A stretch of DNA of 64,000 bases from positions 2,515 through 66,514 of the forward strand of contig JBHJGR010000003.1 of assembly GCA_050331615.1 (NCBI GenBank). The letters are read 5' to 3'. The DNA comes from Elainellaceae cyanobacterium. GTDB taxonomy: Bacteria; Cyanobacteriota; Cyanobacteriia; CAKZMO01. Positions within the stretch are counted from its first letter, which is position 1. Each line of letters starts with the position of its first letter. The position numbers were made by a program, and so were the translations under genes. The notes beneath the pieces are model-generated. The model saw only the letters and a list, made by a program, of their open reading frames with translations. It did no database searches and was not told where the DNA came from. Of this stretch, positions 11,040-45,066 are shown piece after piece.

Positions 11040-11135
11040 GCTGTAGCGTTACGTTTTCGCGTTAGGACATTCAAGAGGTGTGGAACTCCCGCGACGCGCG
11101 GGTTCCATAATCAACCCTTAGCCCATAGGGCGATA
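11040..11135 (-). repeat. MITE/REP-like ~95-bp multi-hairpin element, copy 1 (reverse orientation)
   Basis: Matches the consensus TAGCCCTACGGGCTAAGGTTTGAGTGTGGAACCCCCGCG-CGCGGGGGTTCCACAC...CCTAACGCGAAAGCGTAGCGCCATA in reverse complement. Confidence 0.85.
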
Positions 11136-11194
11136 CAAGCGAATGGATTATGCGTGCATTGTGTTCTATCCTTATTCTCTAGCTGCTAAATATC

Positions 11195-12154
11195 ATGGTC
11201 AGATTAACGATGCTGCCCATTGGGGCCATGGCACTCTTAGTTGTAGCGTTTTCGACTTACCAAATCTCCTCCGCGTCGTCATCGTCCTTACCAATGGAAG
11301 TTTCCGTTAGGGATGCCCCTAATCGCTTTCCACCCGACGCCCAGGCAGTCCCCAGGGGTCTCAGGGAAGCAAACGTGGTGTATCTAGGAGAAACCCATAA
11401 TCAGCCCGATGACCACGCGGCGCAGTTTAACATCATCCAAAAGCTTTATCAGGAGAATCCTGATTTGGCGATCGCCATGGAGATGTTTCAGCGCCCCTTC
11501 CAGCCTGTCATTGATGATTATCTAGCAGGCCAGATTTCGGCGGCAGAGCTACGGCGACAGAGTGAGTATGACCAGCGCTGGGGCTATCCCTGGAGCTACT
11601 ACGAGCCCATTTTGGAATTTGCCAAAGCGCAGGGGCTGCCGGTCCTTGCAGCCAATACCCCCGCCGAAATTACGCAGCAGGTGGCCCGTGAGGGGCTAGA
11701 CAGCCTCTCCGAGGACGATCTGCAGTGGATTCCGCCGGTTTCGGAAATTCATACCAACAACGATGCCTACCGTGAGTGGATTCGCCAGATCTATCGCGGT
11801 AGCCATCGGGGGCACGGCAACAGCCAGAACTTTAACAATTTTTTCCTGGCTCAGGTGCTTTGGGATGAGACGATGGCGGAGAGCGTCGCCCAGTTTCTCA
11901 TCGAAAATCCCAACCGCCAGGTGGTGGTGCTGGCTGGGCAGGGGCACATCATGTATGGCTACGGCATTCCCAGTCGGGTGGCGCGGCGGGTCGAGTCCAG
12001 TCCCCAGTGGCAGGGGCAGTTTTCCCAGACGACCGTGCTGCTGAACCCGTCTGAGGACAGCCGTGAACAGCGGGAAGCGGAGGATGGCACGGCGATCGCC
12101 GACTATTTTTGGTTCCACACAGCCCCTGAGCGGGAGTCTGGGCGGGAGCCGTAG
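11195..12154 (+). CDS. ChaN-family (Tiki/TraB superfamily, haem-binding-uptake type) lipoprotein-like protein
   Basis: 319 aa with an N-terminal signal/hydrophobic segment. The family motif is VVYLGETHNQPDDH. A CbbY-like gene follows after a 3-nt gap. Confidence 0.65.
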   Translation: MVRLTMLPIGAMALLVVAFSTYQISSASSSSLPMEVSVRDAPNRFPPDAQAVPRGLREANVVYLGETHNQPDDHAAQFNIIQKLYQENPDLAIAMEMFQRPFQPVIDDYLAGQISAAELRRQSEYDQRWGYPWSYYEPILEFAKAQGLPVLAANTPAEITQQVAREGLDSLSEDDLQWIPPVSEIHTNNDAYREWIRQIYRGSHRGHGNSQNFNNFFLAQVLWDETMAESVAQFLIENPNRQVVVLAGQGHIMYGYGIPSRVARRVESSPQWQGQFSQTTVLLNPSEDSREQREAEDGTAIADYFWFHTAPERESGREP

Positions 12155-12157
12155 CCG

Positions 12158-12946
12158 ATGCCGACGCTGCACGCCATCATTTTTGATGTAGACGGTACCC
12201 TGGCCGAAACCGAGCGGGATGGCCATCGGGTGGCGTTCAATCGGGCCTTTGCCGCGGCGCATCTGCCGTGGCACTGGAACGAGGAGCTTTATGGCGAGCT
12301 GTTGACCGTCGCTGGCGGCAAGGAGCGCATTCGCCATTTCATCGACCGCTATAGGAAATCTGCTGATCTAGGCGGCCAACCGCCCCCTGATGTCCCCAAT
12401 TTGGACCGCTTGATCGCCGAACTGCACGCCGCCAAAACCGTCCACTACCGGCAGTTGCTCCAGGCCGGCAAAATTCCCCTGCGGCCAGGGGTGCGGCGGC
12501 TGATGGATGAAGCCCGCCAGCGGGGGATACGGCTGGCGATCGCCACCACCAGTGCTCCAGATAACGCGATCGCCCTGCTGGAAACGGCCCTGGCCCCCGA
12601 TAGTCCTGACTGGTTTGAAGTCATTGCTGCCGGAGACGTGGTGCCTGCCAAAAAGCCCGCTCCCGACATCTACCGCTATGTGCTGACCCAGATGGGGCTG
12701 ACGCCTGACACCTGCCTGGCGATCGAAGACTCACAGCACGGGCTGGCGGCAGCTTCCCAAGCTGGACTTAGGACCGTGGTGACGGTGAATGACTATACCC
12801 GCCAGCAGGACTTTTCCCAGGCCCTGCTGGTGCTGGACCACTTGGGGGATGAGGGTCTGCCCGCAACGGCGATCGCCGGAGATCTGGGCACTGGCACAGC
12901 CCTGACGGTCGATCTGGCACAGCACCTCCTAACTGTCCCACTGTGA
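12158..12946 (+). CDS. cbbY: HAD-superfamily hydrolase, CbbY-like (xylulose-1,5-bisphosphate phosphatase type)
   Basis: 262 aa. It aligns closely with Rhodobacter CbbY (IIFDVDGTLAETERDGHRVAFNRAF...GKERI...RLAIATTS...KKPAPDIY...EDSQHGL). Confidence 0.75.
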   Translation: MPTLHAIIFDVDGTLAETERDGHRVAFNRAFAAAHLPWHWNEELYGELLTVAGGKERIRHFIDRYRKSADLGGQPPPDVPNLDRLIAELHAAKTVHYRQLLQAGKIPLRPGVRRLMDEARQRGIRLAIATTSAPDNAIALLETALAPDSPDWFEVIAAGDVVPAKKPAPDIYRYVLTQMGLTPDTCLAIEDSQHGLAAASQAGLRTVVTVNDYTRQQDFSQALLVLDHLGDEGLPATAIAGDLGTGTALTVDLAQHLLTVPL

Positions 12947-12968
12947 TCCCGTTAGATAGAAGCACGAG

Positions 12969-13072
12969 TATAGCGTTACGCTTTCGCGTTAGGACATTCA
13001 AGAGGTGTGGAACCCCCGCGACGCGCGGGTTCCACACTCAAACCTTAGCCCGTAGGGCTATATACTTGGTGA
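12969..13072 (-). repeat. MITE/REP-like element, copy 2 (reverse orientation), flanked by TA
   Basis: Same family. It begins tatagcgttacgc and ends gtagggctatata. Confidence 0.85.
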
Positions 13073-13094
13073 CAAGAGAACGAGGAGGTCTATC

Positions 13095-13646
13095 ATGAAG
13101 CGGCTGATCACGACCCTCATCCTTGCCGGAGCGCTGGTGGCGACGCCGAAAGCTGCCCATGCCGACCGAGTGATTCGCATCATTCAACACGGTGGCGACC
13201 ACCCACGACACGACGAATATCGCCGCGATCGCGACTATTATCGGGATCACCCCGTTATCCGTCCCCGCCACGGTCTGGACCTGGATCGTCGGGACGTAGT
13301 CATTGTCACGCCATTTCAGATTGGCCCCTTTCCCCAGAGGCGACCTGCTCCCCTACTGGTCTCCCCAACTCCCGTCGCTTCTCAGGCCGGCAGTCCCCGG
13401 TTACTCCACGGTCAGGAGATTTATCCTGTCTACGCCCTAGTCTACGGTCGTAATCAGCTAGAGGGCCGCGAAGGACCGGGAACGGTGTACTCCGTCTTGA
13501 CTCGGTTTGCGCCTGGGCAGTGGGTCACCCTCACCCAGGTGGCAGGCGGGGCCGACGGCTATGACTGGTATCTAGCGGCTTCCCCCTCTGGCCAATATGC
13601 CTGGGTGCGGGGAGACGCGGTCGCAATCTACGTCGACGAAGATTAG
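13095..13646 (+). CDS. Secreted protein with a His/Arg/Asp-rich region and a C-terminal bacterial SH3-like domain
   Basis: 183 aa with a signal peptide (MKRLITTLILAGALVATPKAAHA). A GAGGAGG ribosome-binding site lies 6 nt upstream. The C-terminal GQWVTLTQVAGGADGYDWYLAASPSGQYAWVRGDAVAI resembles SH3b. Confidence 0.55.
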   Translation: MKRLITTLILAGALVATPKAAHADRVIRIIQHGGDHPRHDEYRRDRDYYRDHPVIRPRHGLDLDRRDVVIVTPFQIGPFPQRRPAPLLVSPTPVASQAGSPRLLHGQEIYPVYALVYGRNQLEGREGPGTVYSVLTRFAPGQWVTLTQVAGGADGYDWYLAASPSGQYAWVRGDAVAIYVDED

Positions 13647-13818
13647 GGGCGTTTAGGAAATTTCTGCAAGCGATTCTACCCGACGACGTAGGAGCCAATG
13701 GCCCTTTACCCTTGCCAGCCGTCTACCCGGAGCAACCCACTGCTCAACCCAGACGAGGTTTAGGATAAAGATAGATCGAAGCGATCGATCGACTGTTCTA
13801 AACCCTCTACAAGACTGC

Positions 13819-14661
13819 ATGGATTGGCAAGCAATTTCGGGAAACTGGCTCCTGGTGCCCCCCCGGCCTAGGGCAATCGTTCATTTTTTGGGCGGGGCGT
13901 TTGTCGCCAGCGCGCCCCAAGTTACCTATCGACTGTTGCTGGAGCATCTGGCCCATCAGGGCTATGCGGTGGTGGCGACGCCGTTTGTGAACACGATGGA
14001 TCACGTGGCGATCGCCCGTAGCGTCCTTCTCTCCTTTGAGGGGGGGCTGGACTACCTGCAGGAGCGGGTTCTGCGGCAGCGCTATCTGCCCGTTTATGGC
14101 CTGGGTCACAGCATGGGCTGTAAGCTCCACCTGCTGATTTGCAGTTTGTTTGAGCCGGAACGGGCGGGCAATATCTTCATCTCGTTCAACAACTTTCCGG
14201 CCCGCCGCTCAATTCCGTTCCTGGAGCAGGCCAGCCAGTTCTCGTCGGCGTTTGAGGGCATGCGCCAGTCCTTTCCCCTGCTGAACCAGTTTGCCCAAGT
14301 CTCTCCTATGCTGGATGCAGAATTTGTGCCCTCTCCAGACGAAACCAATCAAATCATTGCCGATCGCTATCCCGTGCGGCGCAATCTGCTCATCAAGTTT
14401 CGCCAGGACGACATTGACCAAACCCTCACCCTGAATGACGTTCTGCAGCTACGGTTTCCTGACCTGACCACGTTTCACATTTTGCCGGGTAGCCACCTCA
14501 CGCCTTTAGGTCAGGACGTGACCTGGCGATCGGGGGACGCATTTTCCCCGATTGATGCCGTTGGCCAGTTCGTGCGTCAGGAGTTCTACCGGGACCTGAA
14601 CCAGCTCAAGCTCCAGGTGCTGCGCTGGCTAGACCCCGTTACGTTTGACCAGAAGCGGTAA
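13819..14661 (+). CDS. Alpha/beta-hydrolase-fold protein (DUF1350-like cyanobacterial/plastid-lineage family)
   Basis: 280 aa with a GxSxG nucleophile elbow (GLGHSMGCKL). The family assignment is from memory. Confidence 0.5.
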   Translation: MDWQAISGNWLLVPPRPRAIVHFLGGAFVASAPQVTYRLLLEHLAHQGYAVVATPFVNTMDHVAIARSVLLSFEGGLDYLQERVLRQRYLPVYGLGHSMGCKLHLLICSLFEPERAGNIFISFNNFPARRSIPFLEQASQFSSAFEGMRQSFPLLNQFAQVSPMLDAEFVPSPDETNQIIADRYPVRRNLLIKFRQDDIDQTLTLNDVLQLRFPDLTTFHILPGSHLTPLGQDVTWRSGDAFSPIDAVGQFVRQEFYRDLNQLKLQVLRWLDPVTFDQKR

Positions 14662-14756
14662 TGCTTTCACTGTACCAAAAAATGTACTAAATTAATAAGG
14701 GTTCACCTTCCCTCAGATGGATTACGGGTATCTTCCTGGACAGGCTGACGATTGCG

Positions 14757-17519
14757 ATGGAAATTCTCTCAGTTACGCTCAAAAACTTTAAGTCCCACGG
14801 CGATCGCCACTTTGCATTCCAGCCGGGCACCAACGCCATTTGCGGGGAAAACGGAGCGGGGAAAACCAGCATTTTAGAGGCGATCGCCTGGGTGCTGTTC
14901 AACTACCGGGGCAACTACCGCAAGGAAGACTTTATTCGCAATGGGGCCAGCAGCGCTCAGGCCACGGTGTCCTTTGTCTCCAGCCGGGATGCTCGCACCT
15001 ATGACATCATGCGCTGCACCAGCCGGGGCTACAGCCTCTTCGATCCCCAACTGGGGCAGCGGCTGCCCTACACGCGCATTGAAGACGAGGTGCTGCCCTG
15101 GCTGCGGCAACATTTAGGAGTCTCCCCCGGCACCGACCTGGAGCGGCTGTTTGAGAATACTATTGGCGTCCCCCAGGGCACCTTTACGGCAGACTTCCTG
15201 CTATCGGCGGAGAAGCGAAAGCAGGTTTTTGACGTTGTCCTCAAGGTGGAAGAATACAAGCAGGTTTACTCCGGGCTGGCTTCGCTGAAGAAGTACGGCG
15301 ACGGGCAGATCGATGCTGTCAAGCGAGACTTGGCCCACTACGAAGAAGCGCTGGCAGACTGGGAAGCCATACAAACCCGTCATCAGCAGCTCCAGCAAAC
15401 TATCCGGCAGGATGAGGCCACACTCACCCAATTGGAGCGGCGGCTCACCCAGCTACAAACTCGACGGGATCAGTTCGCGGCCCAGGCCCAGCGAGCGCAG
15501 CAACTGGAGACCCAACTGCAAACCCTCGCCACCCGAATAACCGGTAAGGAACAGGAGCGATCGCTCCGTGAACAGGCCGTCATCCAGGCCCAGCAAGCGC
15601 TGGAGCGCTGTGCCCAGCATCGCGATGGCTACGAAGCCTATCAGCAGGCGGAGGCAGCCCTGCAAACCCTCGACCAGCAGGCTAAGCAGCAAAAGAAACT
15701 GCTCAAGCGACAGCAAACTCTGCGGGAAACTCTGGCGACCCACGAGGCCAGAGCAGCGGCGCTGCAGATAGAGCGGGATCGCCTCACTCAAATCGAGTCT
15801 ACCCTGGCCAAGCTGGAGCCCCTCCTGGCCCAGCAAGCTGACCTGGAACAGCAGCAGCAGGCTCTAGACCAAGAACTGCAGCAGCTTCACCAGTGTCAGC
15901 TAGAGCTGGAGGCGTCGAACCAACAGCTCCAGCGGCTGCGGCGGGAGTGGAAGCAGCTGGCCCAAGAGATTGAGCGCCTCCAGTCCCTCGCCCCCGTAGT
16001 CGAGACCATCCCAGATTTAGAACAGCAGCGCGATCGCCTCCAGCTCCAGATTAGCCGGGTGGACGCAGCTCAGCAGTTTGAGGCCGAGCTACGGCAGTTG
16101 GCTCTGTCCATAGGGGAAAAGGGCGATCGCCTCCAGGCCCAAGCCCAGGCAGCTCTGAAGGCGCTGCAAGCCATCCAGCCCGCTTTCGGGAAGCAAGAGC
16201 CTGACCCCATCGCGTCTATCGCGGCGGTTCTGGAGTCGGGAGCTGCCCTCAACGCCGAAATGCTCACGGCGCTACAAACCATCCTGGCCGACCTGGCTGA
16301 GCAGGTTTCCGTGCCCAAGCTGAAGCGACAGGTCACCGACCTCAACCGGCAGCTAAAAACGGCCTATCAGCACCGGGCCGACTGGGGCCAACTGGAGGAG
16401 AAGCAGGCCCAGCAGGCCGACCGCCAGCGAGAGGGCGAGCAGATTCAAGTGCGCCTGAAGGAACTCCAGGCCCGGCTCGATACCCAGACAGAGCGGCAGC
16501 AGCAGCGATCGCAGCTTACCCTTGCTCTGGAGAAGCTAGACAATCCTAAAAGCCGCCACCAAATTTTGCAGGCTGAGCTGAAACGGCGGGATCAGGTGCT
16601 AGCCGACCAGCAGCAGCTAGGGGCTGAGGGCGATCGCCTCCGGCAGCAGCTCCAGGACCTGGAAACCCAGCTCCAGCCCTTTGCCGACTTGGACAACCAA
16701 ACGGAGGCCCAGCAAACCCGTCGCCAGACCCACCAGCCCAGCTATCTCATCTACCTGCAAAACCAGCAGGAAGCCGACCAGCTCACCGTCCGTCAGACCG
16801 ATCTGGAGACAGCGCAGCAACAGCTCCAGGAACTCCAGCAGGAGCGGCAGCGGGTGCAGCAGGACTACAGCGAGGCGATCGCCCAATATAGCCCGGAGGA
16901 GCATCGCCAGCTCGACGCCGATTACAATGAGGCCCGCAGCCAAACCGACCAGCTACTGGGTCGATTGCCCCAGCAGCAGCAGACCCTTGCTGAGCTGGAG
17001 GCTACCCTGGCCAAGCTAAAGTCTCTGGCGGATAAGCGCGATCGCGCCCAGGCTGACCTTAAGCATAAGGATCGCATCAAGCGCTTCATTAACTTCGCCC
17101 GCAAGGTCTACAGAGAGGCGGGGCCACGGGTGACTGAGCGCTACGTGCAAACCATCTCGCAGGAAGCGGATCGACTGTTTCGGGAGCTGCTGAATCGCCC
17201 CAATATTGCCCTGGAATGGGCGAGGGATTATGAAATCATCGTCCAAGAGGGGGCGCACCGTCGCCGCTTCATTAACCTGTCCGGCGGTGAGCAGATGTGT
17301 GCGGCTCTGGCCGTGCGGCTGGCGCTGCTGCGGGTGCTAGCCGACATCGATATCGCCTTCTTTGACGAACCCACGACCAATATGGATCGGCCCCGCCGTC
17401 AGAGTTTAGCGGAAGCGATCGCCAACATTCGCACCTTTCACCAGCTTTTCGTCATCAGCCACGACGACACCTTTGAGCAGTTCACCGAAAACGTCGTCCT
17501 GGTAGAGCGGGAAGTTTAG
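14757..17519 (+). CDS. SbcC/Rad50-like SMC-type ATPase
   Basis: 920 aa. It has an N-terminal Walker A (GENGAGKTSILEAI), about 600 aa of Q/E/L/R-rich coiled coil, and a C-terminal ABC signature plus Walker B/D-loop (LSGGEQMCAALAVRLALL...IAFFDEPTTNMD). Confidence 0.85.
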   Translation: MEILSVTLKNFKSHGDRHFAFQPGTNAICGENGAGKTSILEAIAWVLFNYRGNYRKEDFIRNGASSAQATVSFVSSRDARTYDIMRCTSRGYSLFDPQLGQRLPYTRIEDEVLPWLRQHLGVSPGTDLERLFENTIGVPQGTFTADFLLSAEKRKQVFDVVLKVEEYKQVYSGLASLKKYGDGQIDAVKRDLAHYEEALADWEAIQTRHQQLQQTIRQDEATLTQLERRLTQLQTRRDQFAAQAQRAQQLETQLQTLATRITGKEQERSLREQAVIQAQQALERCAQHRDGYEAYQQAEAALQTLDQQAKQQKKLLKRQQTLRETLATHEARAAALQIERDRLTQIESTLAKLEPLLAQQADLEQQQQALDQELQQLHQCQLELEASNQQLQRLRREWKQLAQEIERLQSLAPVVETIPDLEQQRDRLQLQISRVDAAQQFEAELRQLALSIGEKGDRLQAQAQAALKALQAIQPAFGKQEPDPIASIAAVLESGAALNAEMLTALQTILADLAEQVSVPKLKRQVTDLNRQLKTAYQHRADWGQLEEKQAQQADRQREGEQIQVRLKELQARLDTQTERQQQRSQLTLALEKLDNPKSRHQILQAELKRRDQVLADQQQLGAEGDRLRQQLQDLETQLQPFADLDNQTEAQQTRRQTHQPSYLIYLQNQQEADQLTVRQTDLETAQQQLQELQQERQRVQQDYSEAIAQYSPEEHRQLDADYNEARSQTDQLLGRLPQQQQTLAELEATLAKLKSLADKRDRAQADLKHKDRIKRFINFARKVYREAGPRVTERYVQTISQEADRLFRELLNRPNIALEWARDYEIIVQEGAHRRRFINLSGGEQMCAALAVRLALLRVLADIDIAFFDEPTTNMDRPRRQSLAEAIANIRTFHQLFVISHDDTFEQFTENVVLVEREV

Positions 17520-17547
17520 CCTTGCCCGGAGATCTGCCCCAGGGGAG

Positions 17548-17880: not shown

Positions 17881-18053
17881 GAATTATTCTCTTGGGGGTG
17901 TGCGCCCCCATAAAATACAATTAGCCATCTGAGGATGCACGGATTTGGGTCAGGGACGGACAATCGCCGCTATACCTCTACCCTAAACAGGCTCGTATGC
18001 CCATGCCATCAACAGGTTTAATTGGGGACATGAATAAACTAGATTGATTTGGT

Positions 18054-18152
18054 ATAGCCCTACGGGCTAAGGCTTGAGTGTGGACCCCCCGCGCCGCCGT
18101 GGGGCTACATCTCTTGAATGCCCTAACGCGAAAGCGTAGCGCCATACGAGTG
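18054..18152 (+). repeat. MITE/REP-like element, copy 3
   Basis: tatagccctacgggctaaggcttgagtgtggaccccccgcgccgccgtggggctacatctcttgaatgccctaacgcgaaagcgtagcgccatac. Confidence 0.85.
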
Positions 18153-18172
18153 ACAGAGCGGCAGGTAAGGAC

Positions 18173-27546: not shown

Positions 27547-27643
27547 AGTGGTGGATGCGGCGATGCAAACCGTTGGCTATCTGGCGAAGCGGCAGCTCGC
27601 TAAAAAGGTATTAGAACAGGACGGGTCCGCAGATACAGCCCTA

Positions 27644-27722
27644 CGGGCTAAGGTTTGAGCAGGAAACCTCAGGGTCGCGGGGGTTCCACATCTCCTAAAT
27701 GTCCTAATGCGAAAGACGAGTT
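27644..27722 (+). repeat. MITE/REP-like element, copy 4 (one palindrome arm degenerate)
   Basis: tacagccctacgggctaaggtttgagcaggaaacctcagggtcgcgggggttccacatctcctaaatgtcctaatgcgaaagacgag. Confidence 0.75.
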
Positions 27723-32009: not shown

Positions 32010-32100
32010 TGTCTCTTATGGCCATAAGGGCTAAGGTTTAAGTTTGGAACCCCCGCGCCGCGGGGGTTCCAAACCTCTTGAATGTCCTAACGCGAAGGCG
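32010..32100 (+). repeat. MITE/REP-like element, copy 5
   Basis: ccataagggctaaggtttaagtttggaacccccgcgccgcgggggttccaaacctcttgaatgtcctaacgcgaaggcgtagcgccatat. Confidence 0.85.
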
Positions 32101-32125
32101 TAGCGCCATATTTGTGGCTATGTAC

Positions 32126-37263: not shown

Positions 37264-37414
37264 GCGAGAAGGGGACAACATTAGAGTTTTGCTCTAGGAA
37301 TTTACCAGCTAACAATTTTCTCTGAAGATGCGCCTTTCAGTTGGAGGGCGTATCGTTCTTATCGATCGGTGGTAAATTAAATCCAATATTCATGATCTGC
37401 CTAGGAATAAAAGC

Positions 37415-38116: not shown

Positions 38117-38731
38117 GTGGGGGCTGGCCCACCGTTCCAAAAGCAGAAATAAGCCATTTGCGGCAAAGGCCAATAGAGCAACGGCGATCGCCCCCGCCCA
38201 AATTTTGTCATAGCGCCCCGTCTGGGCAATGCCGTCGAACAGCAGGGTACCCAGCCCGCCTGCGCCAAACTTTGCGCCAATGGTGGCAATGGCGATCGCC
38301 ACGATGGCCGACAGCCTTACCCCTGCCAGGAAAACGGGCAGCACCAGCGGCACCTGCACCCACCACCACCGCTGCCAGCCGCTCATCCCCATACCCGTCG
38401 CCGCTTCCAGAATTGCCGGATCGATACCCTGGAGCCCGACCGTGAGGTTGCGCACCAAAATGACCTGAACATAGAGCACCATCGCCACCACCACCGAGGC
38501 GGCGTTGAGGCCAAACAGGGGAACCAGCAGAATGATGAGCGCCAGACTGGGAATAGTGTAAATCACTCCCAGCGTTCCCAGCACCGGGACGGTGAGCCAG
38601 CGGAACTGCAGCACCAGCAGCGAGAGGGGCACGGCCAGGAGGATGGCGATCGCCAGAGTCAGGCCCGTCATTTGCAGATGCTCCACCAGGTATGTGAAGA
38701 CTTCGCCAAGGTTGTCAATGAGGTAAAGCAT
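38093..38731 (-). CDS. ABC transporter permease subunit (OpuBB/ProW-like osmoprotectant-type, binding-protein-dependent inner-membrane component)
   Basis: 212 aa with an ATG start. The EAA-like loop reads AILEAATGMGMSGWQRWWWVQVPL, and there are 5-6 transmembrane helices. No ATPase or substrate-binding-protein gene is adjacent. Confidence 0.78.
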   Translation of the reverse strand: MLYLIDNLGEVFTYLVEHLQMTGLTLAIAILLAVPLSLLVLQFRWLTVPVLGTLGVIYTIPSLALIILLVPLFGLNAASVVVAMVLYVQVILVRNLTVGLQGIDPAILEAATGMGMSGWQRWWWVQVPLVLPVFLAGVRLSAIVAIAIATIGAKFGAGGLGTLLFDGIAQTGRYDKIWAGAIAVALLAFAANGLFLLLERWASPHLRLLSSR

Positions 38732-38823
38732 GGTGACCGGGTATGGGTTGGGCAGAGAAAATCATGCGGCTGGGTGAGCAGGGCAGAGGATTTGGGCTAT
38801 ACTCACATACTTTAGAGTGAAGG

Positions 38824-40578
38824 ATGAACAAGCCAAACTGGGGGCGTTTGATTAATCTGCCCGTCAATAGGCATCTGGGGAACGACTGGAGGATAAGCGT
38901 GATTAATCTTATGCTGCCGTTGATGGGCGCGATCGCCCGTCGTGCCAAATCAAAGTTTCTGCAACAAACGACCCAGGCCGACCGGGTCCAAACGGCGTTC
39001 CTGCGATCGCTGCTAGCGGCCCATCAGCCCACGGAATTTGGTCAGCTGCATCGCCTGGAGGAGATTCGCACGCTTGACCAGTTTCGGCAGCGACTGCCCG
39101 TTTCTACCTACCAAGACTTTTGGCCCTACATTGATCGCATGGCTAGCGGCGAAGCCAACATCCTCACCCCCGACCCGCTGGTCTTTATGAATATGACCAG
39201 CGGCTCCACCGGACCCAAGAAGCTGATTCCCGTGACGCGGCGATCGCGCCAGGCCATTTCCCAGGCTAATCGCACTGCCATGGGCTTCCTGTTCGATGCC
39301 GCCCGTCGTGAGGGAATTTCCCTCGGCAAAATGCTGTTCACCAGCTCCGCCAGCTCGATGGGCATCACCGCTGGCGGCATCGCCTATGGCCCCGTTAGCA
39401 CTAGCGACCTGCGCCTGCGTAACGTCTTTTCTCGCCAAATCTTTGCCTATCCCTTTGAAGTGCTGCAGGTGAGCGACAGCCCCTCTCGTCACTATTTGTG
39501 TCTGTTGTTTGCTCTGAGCCACCCCCACCTGCGGGTTATTAGCGCCACCTTTCCCGTCCTGGCCCTCCAGCTTGCCGACTATCTGGAGAAATACGCTGAG
39601 TCTTTAATCCAAGATCTGGAGACCGGGGAAATTGCCCCCTGGCTAGTGCTGTCTCCTGCCCAGCGGCTAAGGCTGGAGCGGCAGTGGTCCGCTGCTCCCC
39701 AGCGAGCGCGACAGCTCCGCGAGATTTTCCAGGCAGAGGGAACGCTGACGCCGCTGCTGGCCTGGCCGGGGCTGTCCTTTATGGTGACGGCTCGCGGCGG
39801 TACCTCTGACTTTTACTTTGAGCGATTTCCCAAGTACTTTGGCCATACTCCTATTTTTGGGGGGATCTATGCCTCGGCAGAGGCCACCTACGGTATCCAT
39901 CGCGACTTCAACACCGACAGTGTGCTGCTGGCCCTCAATAGCGGCTTCTACGAGTTCATTCCTGAGCACCAGTGGGAGACGACGAATCCTAAAACGGTGC
40001 TGCCCTGGGAAGTGACGCCGGGCGATCGCTACCGCATTGTGGTCACCAACTACAGCGGCTTCTATCGCTATGACGTGGGCGACGTAGTGGAGATAGACGG
40101 CTTTGAGGGCAATACGCCCCGCTTCACCTTTCGTCATCGCCGGGGGGGAGTCATCTCCTCTACCACAGAGAAAACAACTGAGTACCATGTGGTGCAGACG
40201 ATGCAGCGCCTCCAGCAGGAGTTTGCGGTTCAGCTTGAACAGTTCTGCATCACGCTGGCCGATGACCGGATTCCTGCGGCCTACCAGGTCAATATTGAGC
40301 TGGCTCCTGGCTCGCGCCTTGACCAGCCCGAGACGTTCCGCCAGCGGTTTGACGTCGTCCTCAAGGAGGTCAATGCCTCCTATGCCGTCAAGCGTCGTGA
40401 CCAGGTTCCTGATCCTCGTCTGCGGATTCTCGCATCGGGTAGCTTCGCTGCCCTGCGTCGGCGGATGATCCAGCAGGGCACGGTGGAGTCTCAAATCAAG
40501 TTTCCTTTAGTAACGGAGAATCGGACTTGGCTGACCGGGCTGCGAGTGGAGCACGAGATTAGGGCTGATGACTTATAG
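38824..40578 (+). CDS. GH3-family acyl-acid amido synthetase (adenylate-forming)
   Basis: 584 aa. The GH3 P-loop-like motif is TSGSTGPKKLIPVT, and the fold is colinear with plant GH3 and bacterial homologues. The true start may be the internal ATG at 38911. The stop codon TAG is contributed by the first bases of MITE copy 6. Confidence 0.8.
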   Translation: MNKPNWGRLINLPVNRHLGNDWRISVINLMLPLMGAIARRAKSKFLQQTTQADRVQTAFLRSLLAAHQPTEFGQLHRLEEIRTLDQFRQRLPVSTYQDFWPYIDRMASGEANILTPDPLVFMNMTSGSTGPKKLIPVTRRSRQAISQANRTAMGFLFDAARREGISLGKMLFTSSASSMGITAGGIAYGPVSTSDLRLRNVFSRQIFAYPFEVLQVSDSPSRHYLCLLFALSHPHLRVISATFPVLALQLADYLEKYAESLIQDLETGEIAPWLVLSPAQRLRLERQWSAAPQRARQLREIFQAEGTLTPLLAWPGLSFMVTARGGTSDFYFERFPKYFGHTPIFGGIYASAEATYGIHRDFNTDSVLLALNSGFYEFIPEHQWETTNPKTVLPWEVTPGDRYRIVVTNYSGFYRYDVGDVVEIDGFEGNTPRFTFRHRRGGVISSTTEKTTEYHVVQTMQRLQQEFAVQLEQFCITLADDRIPAAYQVNIELAPGSRLDQPETFRQRFDVVLKEVNASYAVKRRDQVPDPRLRILASGSFAALRRRMIQQGTVESQIKFPLVTENRTWLTGLRVEHEIRADDL

Positions 40579-40668
40579 CCCTACGGGCTAAGGTTTGAGT
40601 GTGGAACCTCCGTGACGTGGGGGTTCCACACCGCCTGAATGTTCTGACGCGAAAGCATAGCGCCATAC
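40575..40668 (+). repeat. MITE/REP-like element, copy 6 (overlaps the GH3 stop codon)
   Basis: tatagccctacgggctaaggtttgagtgtggaacctccgtgacgtgggggttccacaccgcctgaatgttctgacgcgaaagcatagcgccatac. Confidence 0.85.
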
Positions 40669-40885
40669 GCCTGATCTCAAAACCAAAACCTCGGAACTTA
40701 AAACTTCCTTAAGATATCCTGATCAAACAGAAGGAAGCTGCCCCTGCGGCTGATGAGGTTACACACTGGTTCTGGTTAAATAGAGCACCATGAAAGATTT
40801 GAAGCAGCCATAGCGGTCCGAGTTCCAGTGCCCCACAACCCAGATTCATCCTGGGCGATCGCCCCAGCGACAATACCGTATCAGC

Positions 40886-41089
40886 ATGTCTCAAGCCGTT
40901 ACACGGGTAATTTTGGCTGCCGGTATGGTTGGGGCAGGGGCTGGCTTCTCCCAGTCTGAACGATTGTTGCGGTCTGTCGAGCAAATGGGCGGACTGGGTA
41001 TTGTGACATATGTTGGGATTTTAGCGATCGCCATTGTCATTGGGTCGTGGAGAACTCAGCGCCATCGCTGGCAGGTTTATAGGGTTTAG
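40886..41089 (+). CDS. Hypothetical small membrane protein (67 aa), weak call
   Basis: ATG start with two hydrophobic segments. It lies 35 bp upstream of the TamB-like gene. Confidence 0.25.
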   Translation: MSQAVTRVILAAGMVGAGAGFSQSERLLRSVEQMGGLGIVTYVGILAIAIVIGSWRTQRHRWQVYRV

Positions 41090-41126
41090 TGCATCTGGAC
41101 TAGGAAGTGGTACGTAAACAACCGAT

Positions 41127-44100
41127 ATGAGAATTCCAGGGATGACTCAAGGGCAATTAGCACGGTTAGCCAACTGGCACCACTGGCAGCGGGTGCTGCA
41201 GGCCGGACTGTGGCTGGGTGGCCTCACGACCCTCGTTGGCGGGCTGGGGGCAATGTATGGCATGAGGTACGTTCAGCAGCATCTAGCCCCAACGGTGGCC
41301 CAGGACCTCAGCGAAACCCTCGATCGCCCAGTTGTATTGGGGGAGGTGAAAGCCATTCGCCCAACGGCTATTCGTCTGGGAGCGTCCTCCATTCCACCCA
41401 CGGCCACCGATGCCGATACGATGCACGTTACCGGGGTGACGGTGGGATTTTCGCCCCTGGATGTGCTGGATGGCACCATCGGCCTAGTGGTCACCCTGGA
41501 GCAGCCCACTGTCTATCTAGACCAGAACGATGGGGGAGATTGGCTAGAAACCGACCTGCCCCCCCGCTCGGAAGATGCGGTAGACATCAGCCAGATTCGT
41601 CTGCGCAACGCCACTATTGAGATGCGGCCCTATGCTACCGAGCAGTCAGTGACGCTACAAAACCTGTCTGCATCCCTACGACTCGACCATCCAACCCAGC
41701 CGCTGCAGTTCTGGGTGCGGGGCCAAACCGAGCAGGGGGGGCGGTTTCGCTGGGTTGGCAGGATTTTAGATGCCGGTGCTATAAATGCCTGGGTGCGGCT
41801 CAAGTCGGTGGCGATCGCCTCCCTCTCGCCCTTGCTGCCCCCCGAAGTTCAGGTAGAGTCGGGCCAGCTTAGCGGACGGGTCCACATTACCCACCATCCT
41901 GACCAGCCCATCGCCCTCAAGGGGTGGGCCAACCTGCGGGACGGGGCGGCCTGGGTAGACGGGGAACCCAACCCCTTCACCCACACGGGCGGACGACTCC
42001 AGTTTGCCGATCAGACAGTTCGCATCGTCCGGGGGCAAACCCAGTACGGCAAAATTCCCTTCGCGGTGGGTGGTACCATCCATCTGCAGGATGGGCTAGA
42101 CCTACAGGCCCAGGTCAAGGCAGTGAGCGTGCCGGACTTTATGGAAACCTTTGACCTCTCCCTGCCGGTCCCCGCTGAAGGAGCCCTCGGCACAGACAAC
42201 CTCACGGTATCGGGGCCGTTTGATCAAGTCATTTTTGCCGGAACGGTTTACGACACCCGCCCCGTGCAAATCGATCGCGTTCCCCTGGCATCGGTCCGCA
42301 CTGAATTTACCTTGAACAAAGGCACTGACGAGCTGCGGCTGTTTGATACCGAGTTTGCCCTCGCCGCTGGGGGCAGCGTTGCGGGTGGAGCCGAGATTCA
42401 GCTCGGAGATATTGACGATGCGGTCATCCGGCTGGCCATGCGACAGGTGTCGGCAGATGCGATCGCCCAAACCTACGACCTAGCCGTCCCCGCATCTCTG
42501 GGTAACGTAGAAGCCGATGCCCGCGTGGTGATCACAGAGGCGGGCCTCACCGCCGACGGTCAGTGGCAGCTTGGGGGGGGCACCTATCCCGCCCAGGGCA
42601 ACCTCCAGGTGAGCGAAGACGGTCTGTACCTGCGGGATGGGGTAATTCAGGTGGCCGACAGCCGAGTCGCGGTGGAGGGCACGGTGCGGGATGGAGACTG
42701 GTCAGCCACGGTGCGCACCTCACCCCTGCCCCTGGCCCAGTTTGCGCCAGAGCTGCCCGGCACCGCCCAGGGCGAGATGACCCTTTCCGGTAGCCTGGCT
42801 CAGCTCGACTTAGCAGAGATGCGGGCGACGGGCGACGTCAAATTGACCCACCTGTCCCCAGACTGGCCCCACCCGATTGACGCTTCGCTGGCCTGGGATG
42901 GCGATCGCCTCCAGGTCAAGCACGCCACTAGTGTCGGGCTCTCTGCCGCCGGCTGGGTTGCGGCGGACTGGGCGGCGGACTCTCCCATCTCGGCTCTGGA
43001 CCTCACGCTGCAGCTTCCCGATTACGACCTGGCGACGCTGCCCATCGACCTGCCCGCTGGCGCATCCTTGACCGGACGCACCCAGCTCATTGCCCGCGTC
43101 ACGGGTACACCCGCCACGCCTCAGGTCAACGGCGACCTCCAGGTGCAGAACCTGGCGGTGAATGGGGCGATCGCCTTCGATCCTCACCTAGATGGCTCTC
43201 TCAGCCTCCACCCTGACCGGGGACTCATGCTCAACCTGACCGGAGCGCGGGACCAGATCAGCCTGGCGATGGCCTCGGCTGAGCAAATTGAGTTTGGCCT
43301 GCAGCGCGATCGCGCCCAGCTGGAGGGCACCCTCACCGGTACTCAGCTAACCGCCACGGTGCAACACCTCCCCCTGGAGCTGATTGCCGATGGGCTCATC
43401 CCCAGCGCCCAAGTCCCTGCTGCTCTCGATCCAGAAACCTGGAGCGGCGTGCTATCGGGACGCCTGACGGCTGACCTGGCTGAAGCGACCCCTCCCCGCC
43501 TGTGGGCCGAGGTGGCGATCGCCCAACCCCGCTTTGGGCCTCTGAGTGCAGCACTGGCGGAGCGGCACCAGCAGGACCAGATTGTGGGCCAGGTCCACTA
43601 TGCTGATGGCCAGGTGCAAATCCGCCAGGGAGAGGTGCGGTTTGGGGAGAGCCGCTTCCAGGTCGCTGGGGACGTGCCCCTCCACCGCTGGGAAGATGCC
43701 ACCGGTCAGATCGACATCGCCAGCGCTCAAGTTCAGGACCTGCTCACGGCTCTGCAGTGGCTGCCCTCCGAATCCGCCGCGCCCATGCCGGTTCAGGCAT
43801 TTGTCTCCCCCAACCCGGCTCCTGAGGACGTGGAGCTGCCCTGGGTAGACAACGCCGCCCAGTCGATGCGGGGTGAGCTAACGGGCAGGATTCGGCGATC
43901 GCCCCAGGCCGACAGTCCCACCGCTCTCACCACCTTCGACTTGCAGGGCCACGACTGGCGCTGGGGCGGCTATGGGATTGAGCAGATTGAACTAGCTGAG
44001 GGGCAGTTTGACGGGACGCACGTGAGCGTGCCCCTGCTGCGGCTAGCGGGGGCCGTGTATGACGGGCAGGGGAATGGGTGGCGATCGCCCGATGCTTCCC

Positions 44101-44933
44101 TCACCCTGGCCCTAGACAGCGCGGAGCAAACGGGTGCCCTCCGGGTTGCCGATATTCCCCTGGCCCTGCTGGGGCAGATGATGGAGCTATCGGATGTGGG
44201 CGGCGAACTCAATCTCAGGGCCACTTGGCAGGGCGATTGGCTAGAGCCGCAGATGGCCGGGAACGTGACCTTACAAAACCCTCGCCTGGGGAGACTGGGC
44301 ACTCCTCGCATGCAGGTCGGCTTTGGCTACCAGGGCAATCACCTGCGGGTGGGCCAATGGTCCGACGGCGGCACCGTGCGGGAACTGCTAGCGGTGGGGC
44401 GAATTCATCTGCCCTTTCGCGACCCACTGCCGCCCACTCAGGAAGCTGCGATGGTGGCTACCCTATCTCTACCTAGTCAGCCCCAAACTGGCATCGAGCC
44501 ACAGGGAGCGGAGCAGGTAATTTTCCATCACGGGCTGATTCAGCCATCGTTTGCGGTGGCCGACCTCCACGAGTTTGTGGCGACCGGGGAGGTGCCAGAC
44601 GGCTGGAGTTTGTATCTGGCGATCGCCGACCTGGAACCCGAAGCCCTCCACGCCCTGCTCACCCAGGAAATTGCCGTCAACCTCGGTATTGCTGACCACT
44701 TGCTCAACTCCGCTATGGGAGAACAGCTCCTGACCTACGTGGGGCAGGTGATCCACACTCCCTCACGGCAGGCTAATGTCCAGGCCCTGCGCTCGGCCCT
44801 GGTGCTGGCGGCTCAAGACGATGCCCGCCTGTCGCTGCTGGAGGTGCTGGACCACTATCCCCACGCCGAAATTCACGTCGATATCAGTCAGCTAGTGAGC
44901 CTCATCAAGGCAATGGAGGCGGCGACCCAATAG
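41127..44933 (+). CDS. Very large TamB/AsmA-like envelope protein with an N-terminal membrane anchor
   Basis: 1268 aa with an ATG start. The N-terminal transmembrane helix is AGLWLGGLTTLVGGLGAMYGM. The remainder is a long beta-rich region with repeated ...GxxxLxG.../DGxLxL motifs, typical of TamB/DUF490/AsmA-2 proteins. The assignment is from composition and architecture, not from a catalytic motif. Confidence 0.55.
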   Translation: MRIPGMTQGQLARLANWHHWQRVLQAGLWLGGLTTLVGGLGAMYGMRYVQQHLAPTVAQDLSETLDRPVVLGEVKAIRPTAIRLGASSIPPTATDADTMHVTGVTVGFSPLDVLDGTIGLVVTLEQPTVYLDQNDGGDWLETDLPPRSEDAVDISQIRLRNATIEMRPYATEQSVTLQNLSASLRLDHPTQPLQFWVRGQTEQGGRFRWVGRILDAGAINAWVRLKSVAIASLSPLLPPEVQVESGQLSGRVHITHHPDQPIALKGWANLRDGAAWVDGEPNPFTHTGGRLQFADQTVRIVRGQTQYGKIPFAVGGTIHLQDGLDLQAQVKAVSVPDFMETFDLSLPVPAEGALGTDNLTVSGPFDQVIFAGTVYDTRPVQIDRVPLASVRTEFTLNKGTDELRLFDTEFALAAGGSVAGGAEIQLGDIDDAVIRLAMRQVSADAIAQTYDLAVPASLGNVEADARVVITEAGLTADGQWQLGGGTYPAQGNLQVSEDGLYLRDGVIQVADSRVAVEGTVRDGDWSATVRTSPLPLAQFAPELPGTAQGEMTLSGSLAQLDLAEMRATGDVKLTHLSPDWPHPIDASLAWDGDRLQVKHATSVGLSAAGWVAADWAADSPISALDLTLQLPDYDLATLPIDLPAGASLTGRTQLIARVTGTPATPQVNGDLQVQNLAVNGAIAFDPHLDGSLSLHPDRGLMLNLTGARDQISLAMASAEQIEFGLQRDRAQLEGTLTGTQLTATVQHLPLELIADGLIPSAQVPAALDPETWSGVLSGRLTADLAEATPPRLWAEVAIAQPRFGPLSAALAERHQQDQIVGQVHYADGQVQIRQGEVRFGESRFQVAGDVPLHRWEDATGQIDIASAQVQDLLTALQWLPSESAAPMPVQAFVSPNPAPEDVELPWVDNAAQSMRGELTGRIRRSPQADSPTALTTFDLQGHDWRWGGYGIEQIELAEGQFDGTHVSVPLLRLAGAVYDGQGNGWRSPDASLTLALDSAEQTGALRVADIPLALLGQMMELSDVGGELNLRATWQGDWLEPQMAGNVTLQNPRLGRLGTPRMQVGFGYQGNHLRVGQWSDGGTVRELLAVGRIHLPFRDPLPPTQEAAMVATLSLPSQPQTGIEPQGAEQVIFHHGLIQPSFAVADLHEFVATGEVPDGWSLYLAIADLEPEALHALLTQEIAVNLGIADHLLNSAMGEQLLTYVGQVIHTPSRQANVQALRSALVLAAQDDARLSLLEVLDHYPHAEIHVDISQLVSLIKAMEAATQ

Positions 44934-44972
44934 GGTGTTGCAGATTGTCGCGATCGCGGATTGGGGCAGAGG

Positions 44973-45066
44973 TATAGCCCTACGGGCTGAGGTTTGAGTG
45001 TGGACCCCGCGTCGCGGGGGGGGCACACCGCTTGAATGTCCTAACGCGAAAGCGTAACGCCATAGA
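44973..45066 (+). repeat. MITE/REP-like element, copy 7
   Basis: tatagccctacgggctgaggtttgagtgtggaccccgcgtcgcggggggggcacaccgcttgaatgtcctaacgcgaaagcgtaacgccatag. Confidence 0.85.

What the first reader, a model, noticed from the sequence alone, without database searches (positions are those of the whole stretch)
11040..45066. Seven copies of a ~95-bp multi-hairpin MITE/REP-like element scattered through 34 kb
The copies are at 11040-11135(-), 12969-13072(-), 18054-18152(+), 27644-27722(+, degenerate), 32010-32100(+), 40575-40668(+) and 44973-45066(+). They share the consensus TA|TAGCCCTACGGGCTAAGGTTTGAGTGTGGAACCCCCGCG(N)CGCGGGGGTTCCACAC(CTCTTGAATGTCCTAACGCGAAAGCGTAGCGCCATA). Three stem-loops are visible by eye: TAGCCC-TAC-GGGCTA; a 15-bp-stem hairpin GTGTGGAACCCCCGCG/CGCGGGGGTTCCACAC; and ACGC-GAAA-GCGT, which has a GNRA-type tetraloop. 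Every copy lies in an intergenic gap, usually hard against a gene's 3' end. Most begin with TATAG, which hints at TA target preference, but there are no obvious terminal inverted repeats. Compensatory changes keep the central stem paired in copies 3, 6 and 7, which argues for selection on RNA or DNA secondary structure rather than simple drift. The element could be a non-autonomous mobile element, a REP-like regulatory or terminator module, or a small-RNA gene family.
Basis: seen in the sequence. Interest (0 to 1): 0.55.

Follow-up and report, generated by a model that had tools for sequence, protein, structure and literature searches.

The report
A 94-bp cyanobacterial MITE family
The seven hairpin-rich repeats are copies of a small non-coding mobile element (a MITE) that inserts at TA sites between genes of an Elainellaceae cyanobacterium: it does not seem to have been catalogued before, but it is an ordinary kind of element.

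Summary
The window holds exactly seven copies of a 94-bp element, with three predicted hairpins, all in intergenic DNA.

The ends are 12-bp imperfect inverted repeats (TATAGCCCTACG / CGTAACGCCATA). Every copy is also bounded by TA...TA.

In a related MAG (JAYKGU01) the element sits inside a second repeat family, and a single TA of that family is found on both sides of it. That is a TA target-site duplication. JAYKGU01 holds at least 28 full copies and 3 internally deleted ones that keep only the ends. A distant Elainellaceae MAG holds 2 decayed copies.

All five window insertion sites that could be compared are empty in JAYKGU01. Yet the consensus in the two genomes differs only at the loop base.

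Individual copies decay freely. Four of the seven no longer fold better than shuffled sequence, and the central stem is the most variable part. Compensatory changes are few (5 cells, about 1 expected).

There is no Rfam match and no terminator-like T-run, and orientation relative to neighbouring genes is mixed.

Best reading: a non-autonomous TIR transposon, probably mobilised by an IS630/Tc1-mariner-type transposase. That transposase was not found. It is a new member of a known kind, of low interest.

The parts
11042..11135 (-). Copy 1 of the 94-bp element. It is decayed: the 3' TA has mutated to CA and the fold is z = -1.5. It lies in the divergent intergenic region 60 bp upstream of the ChaN-like gene (11195-12154).
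   Evidence: the orthologous site in MAG JAYKGU01 (L107 about 8929-9015) lacks it
12969..13062 (-). Copy 2, the best preserved (97% identical to a JAYKGU01 copy). It lies between the HAD hydrolase gene (stop at 12946) and the SH3-domain gene (start at 13095). Read on the - strand it consists of: the 5' TIR TATAGCCCTACG; hairpin 1 TAGCCC-TAC-GGGCTA; the 33-bp central palindrome; hairpin 3 ACGC-GAAA-GCGT; and the 3' TIR CGTAACGCTATA.
   Evidence: the site is empty in the MAG, and the left junction falls exactly on the conserved GCACGRG|TA
18053..18146 (+). Copy 3, with a disrupted central stem (z = -1.6). It lies 27 bp beyond the stop of the 189-aa gene (18173-18742, - strand), inside a block of about 630 bp that the MAG lacks.
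27634..27717 (+). Copy 4, degenerate and truncated at the 3' end (positions 1-82 of 94; no stable fold, z = +0.8). It lies next to a synteny break and a relic of an aminotransferase gene end (27546-27620).
32017..32110 (+). Copy 5, with an intact fold (z = -5.1). It carries the compensatory G-C to U-A change in the central stem (GTTTGG...CCAAAC). It lies between the convergent purB gene (stop 31869) and a phosphoesterase gene (stop 32126).
   Evidence: two JGI metagenome contigs of the same population end just before it
40574..40667 (+). Copy 6. Its TATAG start supplies the TAG stop codon (40576-40578) of the GH3-family gene 38824-40578. The central stem is kept through G-U wobbles (z = -4.0).
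   Evidence: the orthologous site in the MAG (L011 4880-5043) has heptamer repeats instead, and the MAG gene ends ...RAEEG* against ...RADDL* here
44973..45064 (+). Copy 7 (92 bp; a 2-nt deletion and a disrupted central stem, z = -1.4). It lies between the convergent DUF748/DUF1400 gene (stop 44933) and a 222-aa ORF (stop 45107).

Best explanation
[quoted passage not shown] It is a 90-bp non-coding DNA transposon with about 12-bp imperfect terminal inverted repeats that inserts at TA dinucleotides and duplicates the TA, giving 94 bp with both TAs.

It cannot move by itself. A DDE transposase encoded elsewhere, most probably of the IS630/Tc1-mariner family (the family known for strict TA duplication and common in cyanobacteria), would bind the terminal 25-30 bp at each end, excise the element and paste it into a new TA.

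Insertions inside genes are removed by selection, so the surviving copies lie between genes, often just after stop codons. After insertion a copy decays neutrally. The hairpins belong to the master sequence and are not maintained at each locus.

Shown here: the repeat family, the TIRs, the TA ends, TA duplication at a nested insertion, deletion derivatives that keep only the ends, non-orthologous insertion sites in two species, and decay of individual copies.

Inferred: the transposase family, and cut-and-paste mobilisation in trans.
For: (1) The boundaries are sharp. In 33 aligned copies similarity starts at TAT(A/G)GCCC and stops at GC(C/T)ATA, and the flanks are unrelated.

(2) TIRs: TATAGCCCTACG against the reverse complement of CGTAACGCCATA matches at 9 of 12 positions. 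The binomial chance is about 4e-4 (my own arithmetic). Real copies reach 10 of 12.

(3) TA duplication. In JAYKGU01 loci L067 and L078 the element lies inside the right end of a second repeat family whose intact end reads ...GCAGTTCTACTTA. The interrupted copies read ...GCAGTTC-TA-[element]-TA-CTCA and ...-TA-CTGA.

(4) Deletion derivatives keep 29-31 nt of the 5' end and 18-25 nt of the 3' end (L011, L033, L085). [quoted passage not shown]

(5) Spread. There are at least 28 full copies in MAG JAYKGU01 and 2 decayed TA-bounded copies in the distant Elainellaceae MAG GCA_051117555.1.

(6) Mobility. The orthologous sites of copies 1, 2, 3, 4 and 6 are all unoccupied in JAYKGU01, and a JAYKGU01 copy (L107 7005-7098) is absent from the window, although gene order is conserved.

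(7) All 34 copies examined are intergenic.

(8) The pattern is star-like decay from one consensus: 84% pairwise identity in the window and 91% in the MAG.

(9) Cyanobacteria are among the most MITE-rich prokaryotes (PMC11602168; PMC2779907).
Against: No autonomous partner was found. None of the 40 window proteins is a transposase. Among 29 loci from relatives, no ORF of 200-520 aa is flanked by TA-bounded inverted repeats, and those loci share no IS-sized repeat.

The TIRs are short and imperfect, and beyond 12 bp the two ends are unrelated.

No perfectly clean empty site (flanks restored around a single TA) could be shown, because the two species are too diverged in intergenic DNA. The TA-duplication evidence rests on one nested arrangement seen at two loci, which may descend from a single event.

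The same ends could also be read as a left-flank TA target plus an element that itself ends in TA.

The consensus is identical over its whole length in two species. That is more conservation than a MITE strictly needs.
Confidence: 0.75

Rival explanations
1. REP/REPIN-type element. On this reading the central 33-bp palindrome is a pair of inverted REP sequences spread by a RAYT (Y1, IS200-like) transposase acting on single-stranded hairpin DNA.
For: There is a long GC-rich perfect palindrome in the centre with very stable DNA hairpin potential. The copies are intergenic and often lie near 3' ends of genes. There is a small excess of double-sided changes in that stem.
Against: The palindrome never occurs alone or as a single arm in the window. 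It is dispensable, because derivatives L033 and L085 lack it but keep both ends. It is the most variable part of the element. The element has TIRs and TA duplication, which REPINs lack. The palindrome carries no terminal GTAG/CGTC tag of the kind described in PMC3733652. No Y1 transposase is among the window proteins.
Confidence: 0.06
2. IS200/IS605-derived palindrome-associated element. On this reading a Y1 TnpA recognises subterminal hairpins 1 and 3 on single-stranded DNA, and the element inserts 3' of a short target ending in TA without duplicating it.
For: Small hairpins sit at both ends. IS200/IS605 elements are abundant in cyanobacteria (PMC2779907). The nested junction can formally be read as a left-flank TA plus an element that ends in TA.
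Against: The two end hairpins are unrelated in sequence (TAGCCC-TAC-GGGCTA against ACGC-GAAA-GCGT), whereas in this family the left and right hairpins resemble each other (established knowledge of IS608/ISDra2). The ends are inverted repeats of one another. No flank conservation exists beyond TA on either side. Both orientations occur within 7 kb (copies 2 and 3).
Confidence: 0.07
3. A host-selected structured RNA or DNA module, such as an mRNA 3'-end stabiliser, an RNase processing site, a terminator or an sRNA family. On this reading its spread and conservation are due to function rather than to transposition.
For: The consensus fold is very stable (z = -6). Hairpin 3 has a GNRA loop. Six of the seven window copies lie within 45 bp of a stop codon. 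The consensus is identical in two species whose genes are 73-91% identical. There are five double-sided changes in the central stem against 1.2 expected.
Against: No Rfam family matches, even at E = 10. There is no T-run and no terminator call, and no promoter lies inside the element. Orientation relative to the upstream gene is 5 sense to 10 antisense. Four of the seven window copies no longer fold better than shuffled sequence, and stems vary more than linkers. No insertion site is shared between the species. Quasipalindrome template switching can produce paired changes without selection (established knowledge).
Confidence: 0.07

Closest known systems
RUP (Repeat Unit of Pneumococcus), the 107-bp MITE of Streptococcus pneumoniae thought to be mobilised by an IS630-family transposase
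   Same: About 100 bp, non-coding, with TIRs and target duplication, many intergenic copies, and stable predicted secondary structure (PMC3184786). The TA target and the IS630-Spn1 link are from my own knowledge of Oggioni and Claverys 1999.
   Different: For RUP a cognate IS with matching ends is known. Here none has been found.
Correia / NEMIS elements of Neisseria
   Same: A small (about 104-157 bp) MITE with no known cognate transposase and often co-transcribed with neighbouring genes (PMC10969869; PMC3184786). That its insertions are bounded by TA is from my own knowledge.
   Different: Correia has 26-bp TIRs that pair with each other to form the RNase III substrate, and it carries promoters and an IHF site. 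Here the TIRs are only about 12 bp, the main hairpin is an internal palindrome, and no promoter-like site was found.
ISY100 (ISTcSa) of Synechocystis PCC 6803, IS630/Tc1-mariner family
   Same: A cyanobacterial element with imperfect terminal IRs and strict TA insertion with TA duplication. Mini-transposons carrying only 30 bp from each end transpose as efficiently as the full element (PMC2170065). This matches the TA ends and the ends-only deletion derivatives seen here.
   Different: ISY100 is a 947-bp autonomous IS that encodes its transposase. The element here encodes nothing.
Cyanobacterial MITEs: Nezha (Anabaena/Nostoc) and MaeMITEa-h (Microcystis)
   Same: Multi-copy TIR-bounded non-coding elements in cyanobacterial intergenic DNA. 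Nezha was likewise inferred to be mobile from filled and empty orthologous sites, and its partner IS is absent from the host genome (PMC3184786; PMC2779907).
   Different: Those elements are 130-435 bp long. This one is 94 bp, with a distinct three-hairpin layout, and is so far seen only in Elainellaceae. Sequence relatedness was not tested.
REP/REPIN elements with RAYT transposases
   Same: A GC-rich palindrome, an intergenic location and high copy number.
   Different: REPINs lack TIRs and target duplication and depend on the palindrome itself. Here the palindrome is dispensable and the ends define the element.

Membership tests
Prokaryotic MITE | Small (under about 600 bp) and non-coding | tested here: met
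   The element is 94 bp, too short to encode a protein, and its boundaries are sharp in 33 aligned copies.
Prokaryotic MITE | Multiple dispersed copies in a genome | tested here: met
   There are 7 copies in 64 kb of the window. MAG JAYKGU01 has at least 28 full and 3 deleted copies on about 29 contigs. GCA_051117555.1 has 2 copies.
Prokaryotic MITE | Terminal inverted repeats of at least about 10 bp | tested here: met
   TATAGCCCTACG against the reverse complement of CGTAACGCCATA matches at 9 of 12 positions in the consensus and at 10 of 12 in real copies that carry one of the common end variants. The repeats are short and imperfect.
Prokaryotic MITE | Target-site duplication flanking the element | tested here: met
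   Nearly all full copies have TA at both ends. A nested insertion in family B shows one TA of ...GCAGTTCTACTTA present on both sides of the element. This rests on one arrangement seen at two loci.
Prokaryotic MITE | Filled and empty orthologous sites (evidence of movement) | tested here: met
   The sites of copies 1, 2, 3, 4 and 6 are unoccupied in collinear JAYKGU01 loci, and L107 7005-7098 is absent from the window. The flanks are too diverged to reconstruct an exact empty site, except at the left junction of copy 2.
Prokaryotic MITE | An autonomous IS with matching ends that supplies the transposase | tested here: inconclusive
   None was found in the window or in about 300 kb from relatives. 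The whole genomes could not be searched.
IS630/Tc1-mariner-derived MITE | Insertion into TA with duplication of TA | tested here: met
   the reference behaviour of ISY100 is described in PMC2170065.
IS630/Tc1-mariner-derived MITE | Ends match those of an IS630-family IS (DDE_3 transposase) in the same or a related genome | not testable with these tools
Metagenome, viral, plasmid and phage searches with the element gave no hit.
REP/REPIN (RAYT-mobilised) | REP palindromes occur as singlets or inverted pairs and are themselves the mobile unit, with a GTAG/CGTC tag | tested here: not met
   The half-palindrome GGAACCCCCGCG occurs only inside the elements. Derivatives without the palindrome keep both ends. 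There is no terminal GTAG tag on the palindrome.
REP/REPIN (RAYT-mobilised) | A RAYT gene in the genome, flanked by the REPs | not testable with these tools
   No Y1 transposase is among the 40 window proteins. The rest of the genome was not available.
IS200/IS605-derived palindromic element | Similar subterminal hairpins at the left and right ends, no TIRs, no target duplication | tested here: not met
   The end hairpins are unrelated in sequence. The ends are inverted repeats. TA is found on both sides at the nested insertion.
Intrinsic (Rho-independent) terminator | A GC-rich hairpin followed directly by a T/U run | tested here: not met
   No family A copy is called in 10500-19500, while the family B and family C hairpins are. 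The tails are CCTCTTGAATGT and TCAAACCTTAGC.
Any Rfam RNA family | A covariance-model score at or above the gathering threshold | tested here: not met
   There are 0 matches at gathering score in the window. Only weak chance matches (E-values 0.17 and above, bit scores far below gathering), mostly to microRNA precursor models, appear at E up to 10.
Correia, RUP, Nezha and MaeMITE (named MITE families) | Sequence similarity to the family consensus | not tested
Size and TIR length differ from the published descriptions.

The most novel reading that the evidence does not exclude
The whole 94-nt consensus differs only at the loop base between two Elainellaceae species whose orthologous genes are 73-91% identical and which share none of the 5 testable insertion sites. 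Two readings follow.

(a) The element, with its unknown transposase, was recently transferred horizontally between these lineages.

(b) The master copy is constrained over its entire length because the three-hairpin transcript or DNA has a function, for example in its own mobilisation or in host RNA processing, beyond the usual TIR-only requirement of MITEs.
Probability: 0.2. Interest if true: 0.4.

Novelty: new member of a known kind. Interest (0 to 1): 0.2.

Why it matters
The practical value is modest.
- Naming the family lets annotators mask several hundred intergenic repeats in Elainellaceae genomes (a rough extrapolation).
- It explains contig breaks in short-read assemblies: two metagenome contigs end right at copy 5.
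- It flags gene-end alterations, as in copy 6, which supplies the stop codon of a GH3-family gene.
- It provides markers for strain typing.

The genome carries at least three TA-bounded or palindromic small repeat families that nest in and cluster with one another. It would therefore suit a study of MITE dynamics in filamentous cyanobacteria. The consensus identity across species hints at horizontal spread of a MITE and transposase pair. Nothing here challenges current understanding.

Tried and rejected
- **Rfam.** Searches at gathering score and at permissive E-values gave no real match.
- **Terminator and promoter scan**. Family A was not called.
- **Literature search for the sequence string** found nothing.
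- **Collection scans.** Two metagenome-contig scans with 21-23-nt patterns, a viral-contig scan, and plasmid and phage BLASTN all gave zero hits. They say nothing about wider distribution. The metagenome collection evidently lacks the JGI samples that do carry the species (L100, L101, L108).
- **Exact-protein look-ups of purB from the window** failed. Homologue-based look-ups worked.
- **Strain-level polymorphism.** JGI contigs 99.8-99.9% identical to the window carry the same copies, so no polymorphism was seen.
- **Search for the autonomous partner.** I annotated 40 window proteins with Pfam. I ran an all-against-all BLAST of the relatives' loci for IS-sized repeats. I scanned for TA-flanked 14-bp inverted repeats around ORFs of 200-520 aa. 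All were negative.
- **Obtaining an IS630 transposase as a local query.** I tried annotated Synechocystis and Nostoc plasmids and found only IS5, IS701, ISL3-like and IS200/IS605 genes, so I abandoned this.
- **Flank logo for a wider target motif**. Only a weak G at position -1 appeared.
- **Rejected readings.** A 3-bp TSD (TAT and ATA are not direct repeats), REPIN, an IS200/IS605 derivative, a terminator and an sRNA family. The reasons are given under the rival explanations.
Full report
**Observation.** Reading the stated coordinates confirms seven related segments. A MAFFT alignment with flanks shows that similarity begins abruptly at TAT(A/G)GCCC and ends at GC(C/T)ATA.

Two diagnostic sub-sequences are far beyond chance. 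The 18-mer of hairpin 1 occurs 7 times with up to 3 mismatches, against 0.04 expected. A 28-mer from the 3' part occurs 5 times against 0. A profile built from the copies finds exactly these seven in the 64-kb window and nothing else.

The refined coordinates are:
- 11042-11135(-)
- 12969-13062(-)
- 18053-18146(+)
- 27634-27717(+, 3' end lost)
- 32017-32110(+)
- 40574-40667(+)
- 44973-45064(+)

**Host.** The window has 134 copies of the HIP1 octamer GCGATCGC against 1.6 expected, and 54-62% G+C. It encodes ordinary chromosomal genes, including purB, Raf1, a group-2 sigma factor, Mn catalase, IspD, LpxD and MgtE, and no transposase. Its PurB is 100% identical to a protein of an NCBI MAG named Elainellaceae cyanobacterium on a 67.8-kb contig (taxonomy). 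Two JGI metagenome contigs are 99.8-99.9% identical to the window.

**Anatomy.** The consensus is TATAGCCCTACGGGCTAAGGTTTGAGTGTGGAACCCCCGCG-N-CGCGGGGGTTCCACACCTCTTGAATGTCCTAACGCGAAAGCGTAACGCCATA.

TATAGCCCTACG against the reverse complement of CGTAACGCCATA (TATGGCGTTACG) matches at 9 of 12 positions. Real copies that carry one of the frequent end variants (TATGGCCC... at the 5' end or ...GTAGCGCCATA at the 3' end) reach 10 of 12, and combining both variants would give 11 of 12. By my own binomial arithmetic, 9 or more matches out of 12 has a chance of about 4e-4.

Nearly every full copy starts and ends with TA. No further direct repeat or conserved motif lies in the flanks, apart from a weak G at position -1.

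**Relatives elsewhere.** Even so, 27 of the 99 stretches came from one genome, MAG 'Synechococcales cyanobacterium isolate 1108005' (JAYKGU01, GCA_035285585.1). The other 72 were lone 16-mers in unrelated phyla with no further similarity.

The JAYKGU01 loci hold 26 full-length copies, and two more were found in loci fetched through neighbouring genes (L102 and L107). Those two loci were chosen without regard to the element and each carries one copy in 15-21 kb. The window carries one per 9 kb. By rough extrapolation that means a few hundred copies per genome.

A more distant Elainellaceae MAG (GCA_051117555.1; PurB 81% identical, 49% G+C) has two decayed copies in 21 kb, again bounded by TA...TA. 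Two other relatives showed none in 16-17 kb. Scans of the metagenome, viral, plasmid and phage collections found nothing.

**Evidence that it moves, and how.**

- *Non-orthologous sites.* JAYKGU01 is collinear with large parts of the window. L107 covers window positions 726-24046, L102 covers 27554-31869 and L011 covers 37413-43571, with 73-91% DNA identity in genes. At the orthologous places of copies 1, 2, 3, 4 and 6 the MAG has no element. Conversely, the MAG copy that abuts the MFS gene's stop (L107 7005-7098) is missing in the window. At copy 2 the conserved left flank GCACGRG runs exactly up to the TA where the element begins.
- *Nested insertion.* A second repeat family ('B'; see below) has an intact right end reading ...CAATGCAGTTCTACTTA. 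In two MAG loci that end is interrupted by a family A element...GCAGTTC-TA-[A]-TA-CTCA in L067 and ...GCAGCTC-TA-[A]-TA-CTGA in L078. One TA has become two, which is the signature of a 2-bp TA target-site duplication.
- *Deletion derivatives.* Three MAG copies are internally deleted but retain both termini. L033 and L085 (54 bp) lack the 40 bp between the direct repeats TTGAGTGT and TTGAATGT, and so lack the whole central palindrome. L011 (49 bp) has another junction. What survives is 29-31 nt at the 5' end and 18-25 nt at the 3' end.
- *Comparison with ISY100.* This is what is expected if only the ends are needed in cis. [quoted passage not shown]

**Is the structure under selection?** Across 33 copies, 94.8% of pair cells form standard pairs. 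That mostly reflects how similar the copies are (92% mean column identity).

Double-sided changes occur in 5 cells at 4 pairs, all in the central helix. Column shuffles give 1.2 cells expected, and 1 of 500 shuffles reaches the observed number. Hairpins 1 and 3 show none. About 43 of the 820 cells do not form a standard pair. The tool's own caveat applies, because these sequences are related. Template switching within quasipalindromes can also create paired changes without selection (established knowledge).

Per-region divergence in the window copies, which were found without regard to sequence, is highest in the central stem (11-13%). It is lowest in the terminal parts and hairpin 3 (4-7%).

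Folded one by one, only copies 2, 5 and 6 are still much more stable than shuffles (z = -4 to -5). Copies 1, 3 and 7 are not (z = -1.4 to -1.6), and copy 4 has lost the fold (z = +0.8). The hairpins therefore belong to the master sequence and are not maintained at individual loci.

**Other functional readings.**
- No Rfam family matches.
- The central hairpin is not followed by a T-run, and the terminator scan does not call it, although it does call the hairpins of families B and C.
- All 34 copies examined lie outside ORFs of 150 aa or more. They are near stops and near starts alike.
- Relative to the nearest upstream gene they are 5 sense and 10 antisense.

This is the pattern of tolerated insertions. 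It is not the pattern of a directional RNA signal. Individual copies may still matter locally. Copy 6 supplies the TAG stop of a GH3-family gene whose last residues differ from those of the MAG orthologue. Copy 2 lies inside a probable operon, 33 bp before a start codon.

**An oddity.** The majority consensus of the window copies and that of the MAG copies differ only at the loop base. Pairwise identity is 84% within the window, 91% within the MAG and 87% between them, which is a star-like pattern. No insertion site is shared, and neighbouring genes are only 73-91% identical. So both bursts post-date the species split yet started from the same master sequence. Either the master is constrained along its whole length or the family moved horizontally. 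I could not discriminate between the two.

**What is missing.** The transposase was not found. There is none in the window. No IS-sized repeat occurs among 28 MAG loci plus the window. No TA-flanked 14-bp inverted repeat surrounds any ORF of 200-520 aa in 29 loci from relatives. MAG assemblies usually lose IS copies, so this absence is weak evidence. IS630 is inferred from the TA duplication alone. Correia elements show that TA-duplicating MITEs can exist without any known partner.

**Comparison with known elements.** The element behaves like RUP, Correia/NEMIS and the cyanobacterial MITEs Nezha and MaeMITE (PMC3184786; PMC10969869; PMC2779907). Cyanobacteria are reported to be among the most MITE-rich prokaryotes (PMC11602168).

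Its special points are its small size, the short TIRs combined with a dispensable internal perfect palindrome, and its restriction, as far as could be seen, to Elainellaceae. Sequence membership in a named family could not be tested.

**Verdict.** It is a real repeat family. It is a MITE with TA target duplication, which makes it a new member of a known kind. Interest is low (0.2).

Noticed in passing
window 18943-19037 (+) and 35377-35470 (-); also L048, L078 (3 copies), L049, L037, L030, L033, L062, L058, L005, L067, L070: A second TA-bounded repeat family ('B') of about 95-110 bp. Its TIRs are TAAGTAGGTCAGC / GCAGTTCTACTTA (10 of 13 positions match). It has a central GC-rich palindrome of variable length, followed by a T-run that scores as terminator-like on both strands. 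In the MAG it often lies next to family A, or is interrupted by it.
   Followed up: partly
window 19138-19205, 24325-24407, 50564-50646: A third small repeat family ('C') built around the palindrome TTAGGGTAAATCCCGCGGGATTTACCCTAA, with partly conserved flanks. The copy near 19.1 kb scores as terminator-like.
   Followed up: partly
whole window: There are 134 HIP1 octamers (GCGATCGC) against 1.6 expected, the hallmark of many cyanobacteria. STRR-type heptamer arrays lie at 2488-2531, 2653-2695, 47308-47356, 49290-49332 and 53043-53085.
   Followed up: partly
family A consensus, window compared with JAYKGU01 loci: The consensus is identical apart from the loop base in two species that share none of the 5 testable insertion sites and whose genes are 73-91% identical. 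This is unexplained: either horizontal transfer or a master copy constrained over its whole length.
   Followed up: partly
window 27546-27620: A relic of the 3' end of a GntR/aminotransferase gene, 86% identical to L102 6103-6165, where the gene is intact. It marks a synteny break immediately beside the truncated copy 4.
   Followed up: partly
window 40574-40578: Copy 6 supplies the TAG stop codon of the GH3-family gene 38824-40578. The C-terminus reads ...RADDL* here and ...RAEEG* in the MAG orthologue.
   Followed up: yes
window 17520-18172 and 7468-9045: There are two presence/absence differences from the collinear MAG locus L107. One is a block of about 630 bp, carrying a 97-aa ORF and copy 3, between the SMC-like gene and the 189-aa gene. 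The other is the alpha-amylase-family gene. At the alpha-amylase gene's place the MAG has a family A copy abutting the MFS gene's stop.
   Followed up: partly
window 45755-46414 and 46577-47122: Tandem paralogous ORFs (219 and 181 aa, 87% DNA identity) with no Pfam match.
   Followed up: no
window 31975-32010; L100 and L101 ends: A GC-rich hairpin (GGTGGGGTGCGCC...GGCGCACCCCAC) lies directly before copy 5. Both JGI contigs of the same population stop there, and L101 ends in Illumina adapter sequence (AGATCGGAAGAGC...), an assembly artefact in the public record.
   Followed up: no
L033 1708-1761 and L085 4881-4934: These 54-bp derivatives of family A share the same deletion junction between the 8-bp direct repeats TTGAGTGT and TTGAATGT that bracket the palindrome. 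Either deletion by slippage recurs, or a short subfamily has itself transposed.
   Followed up: partly
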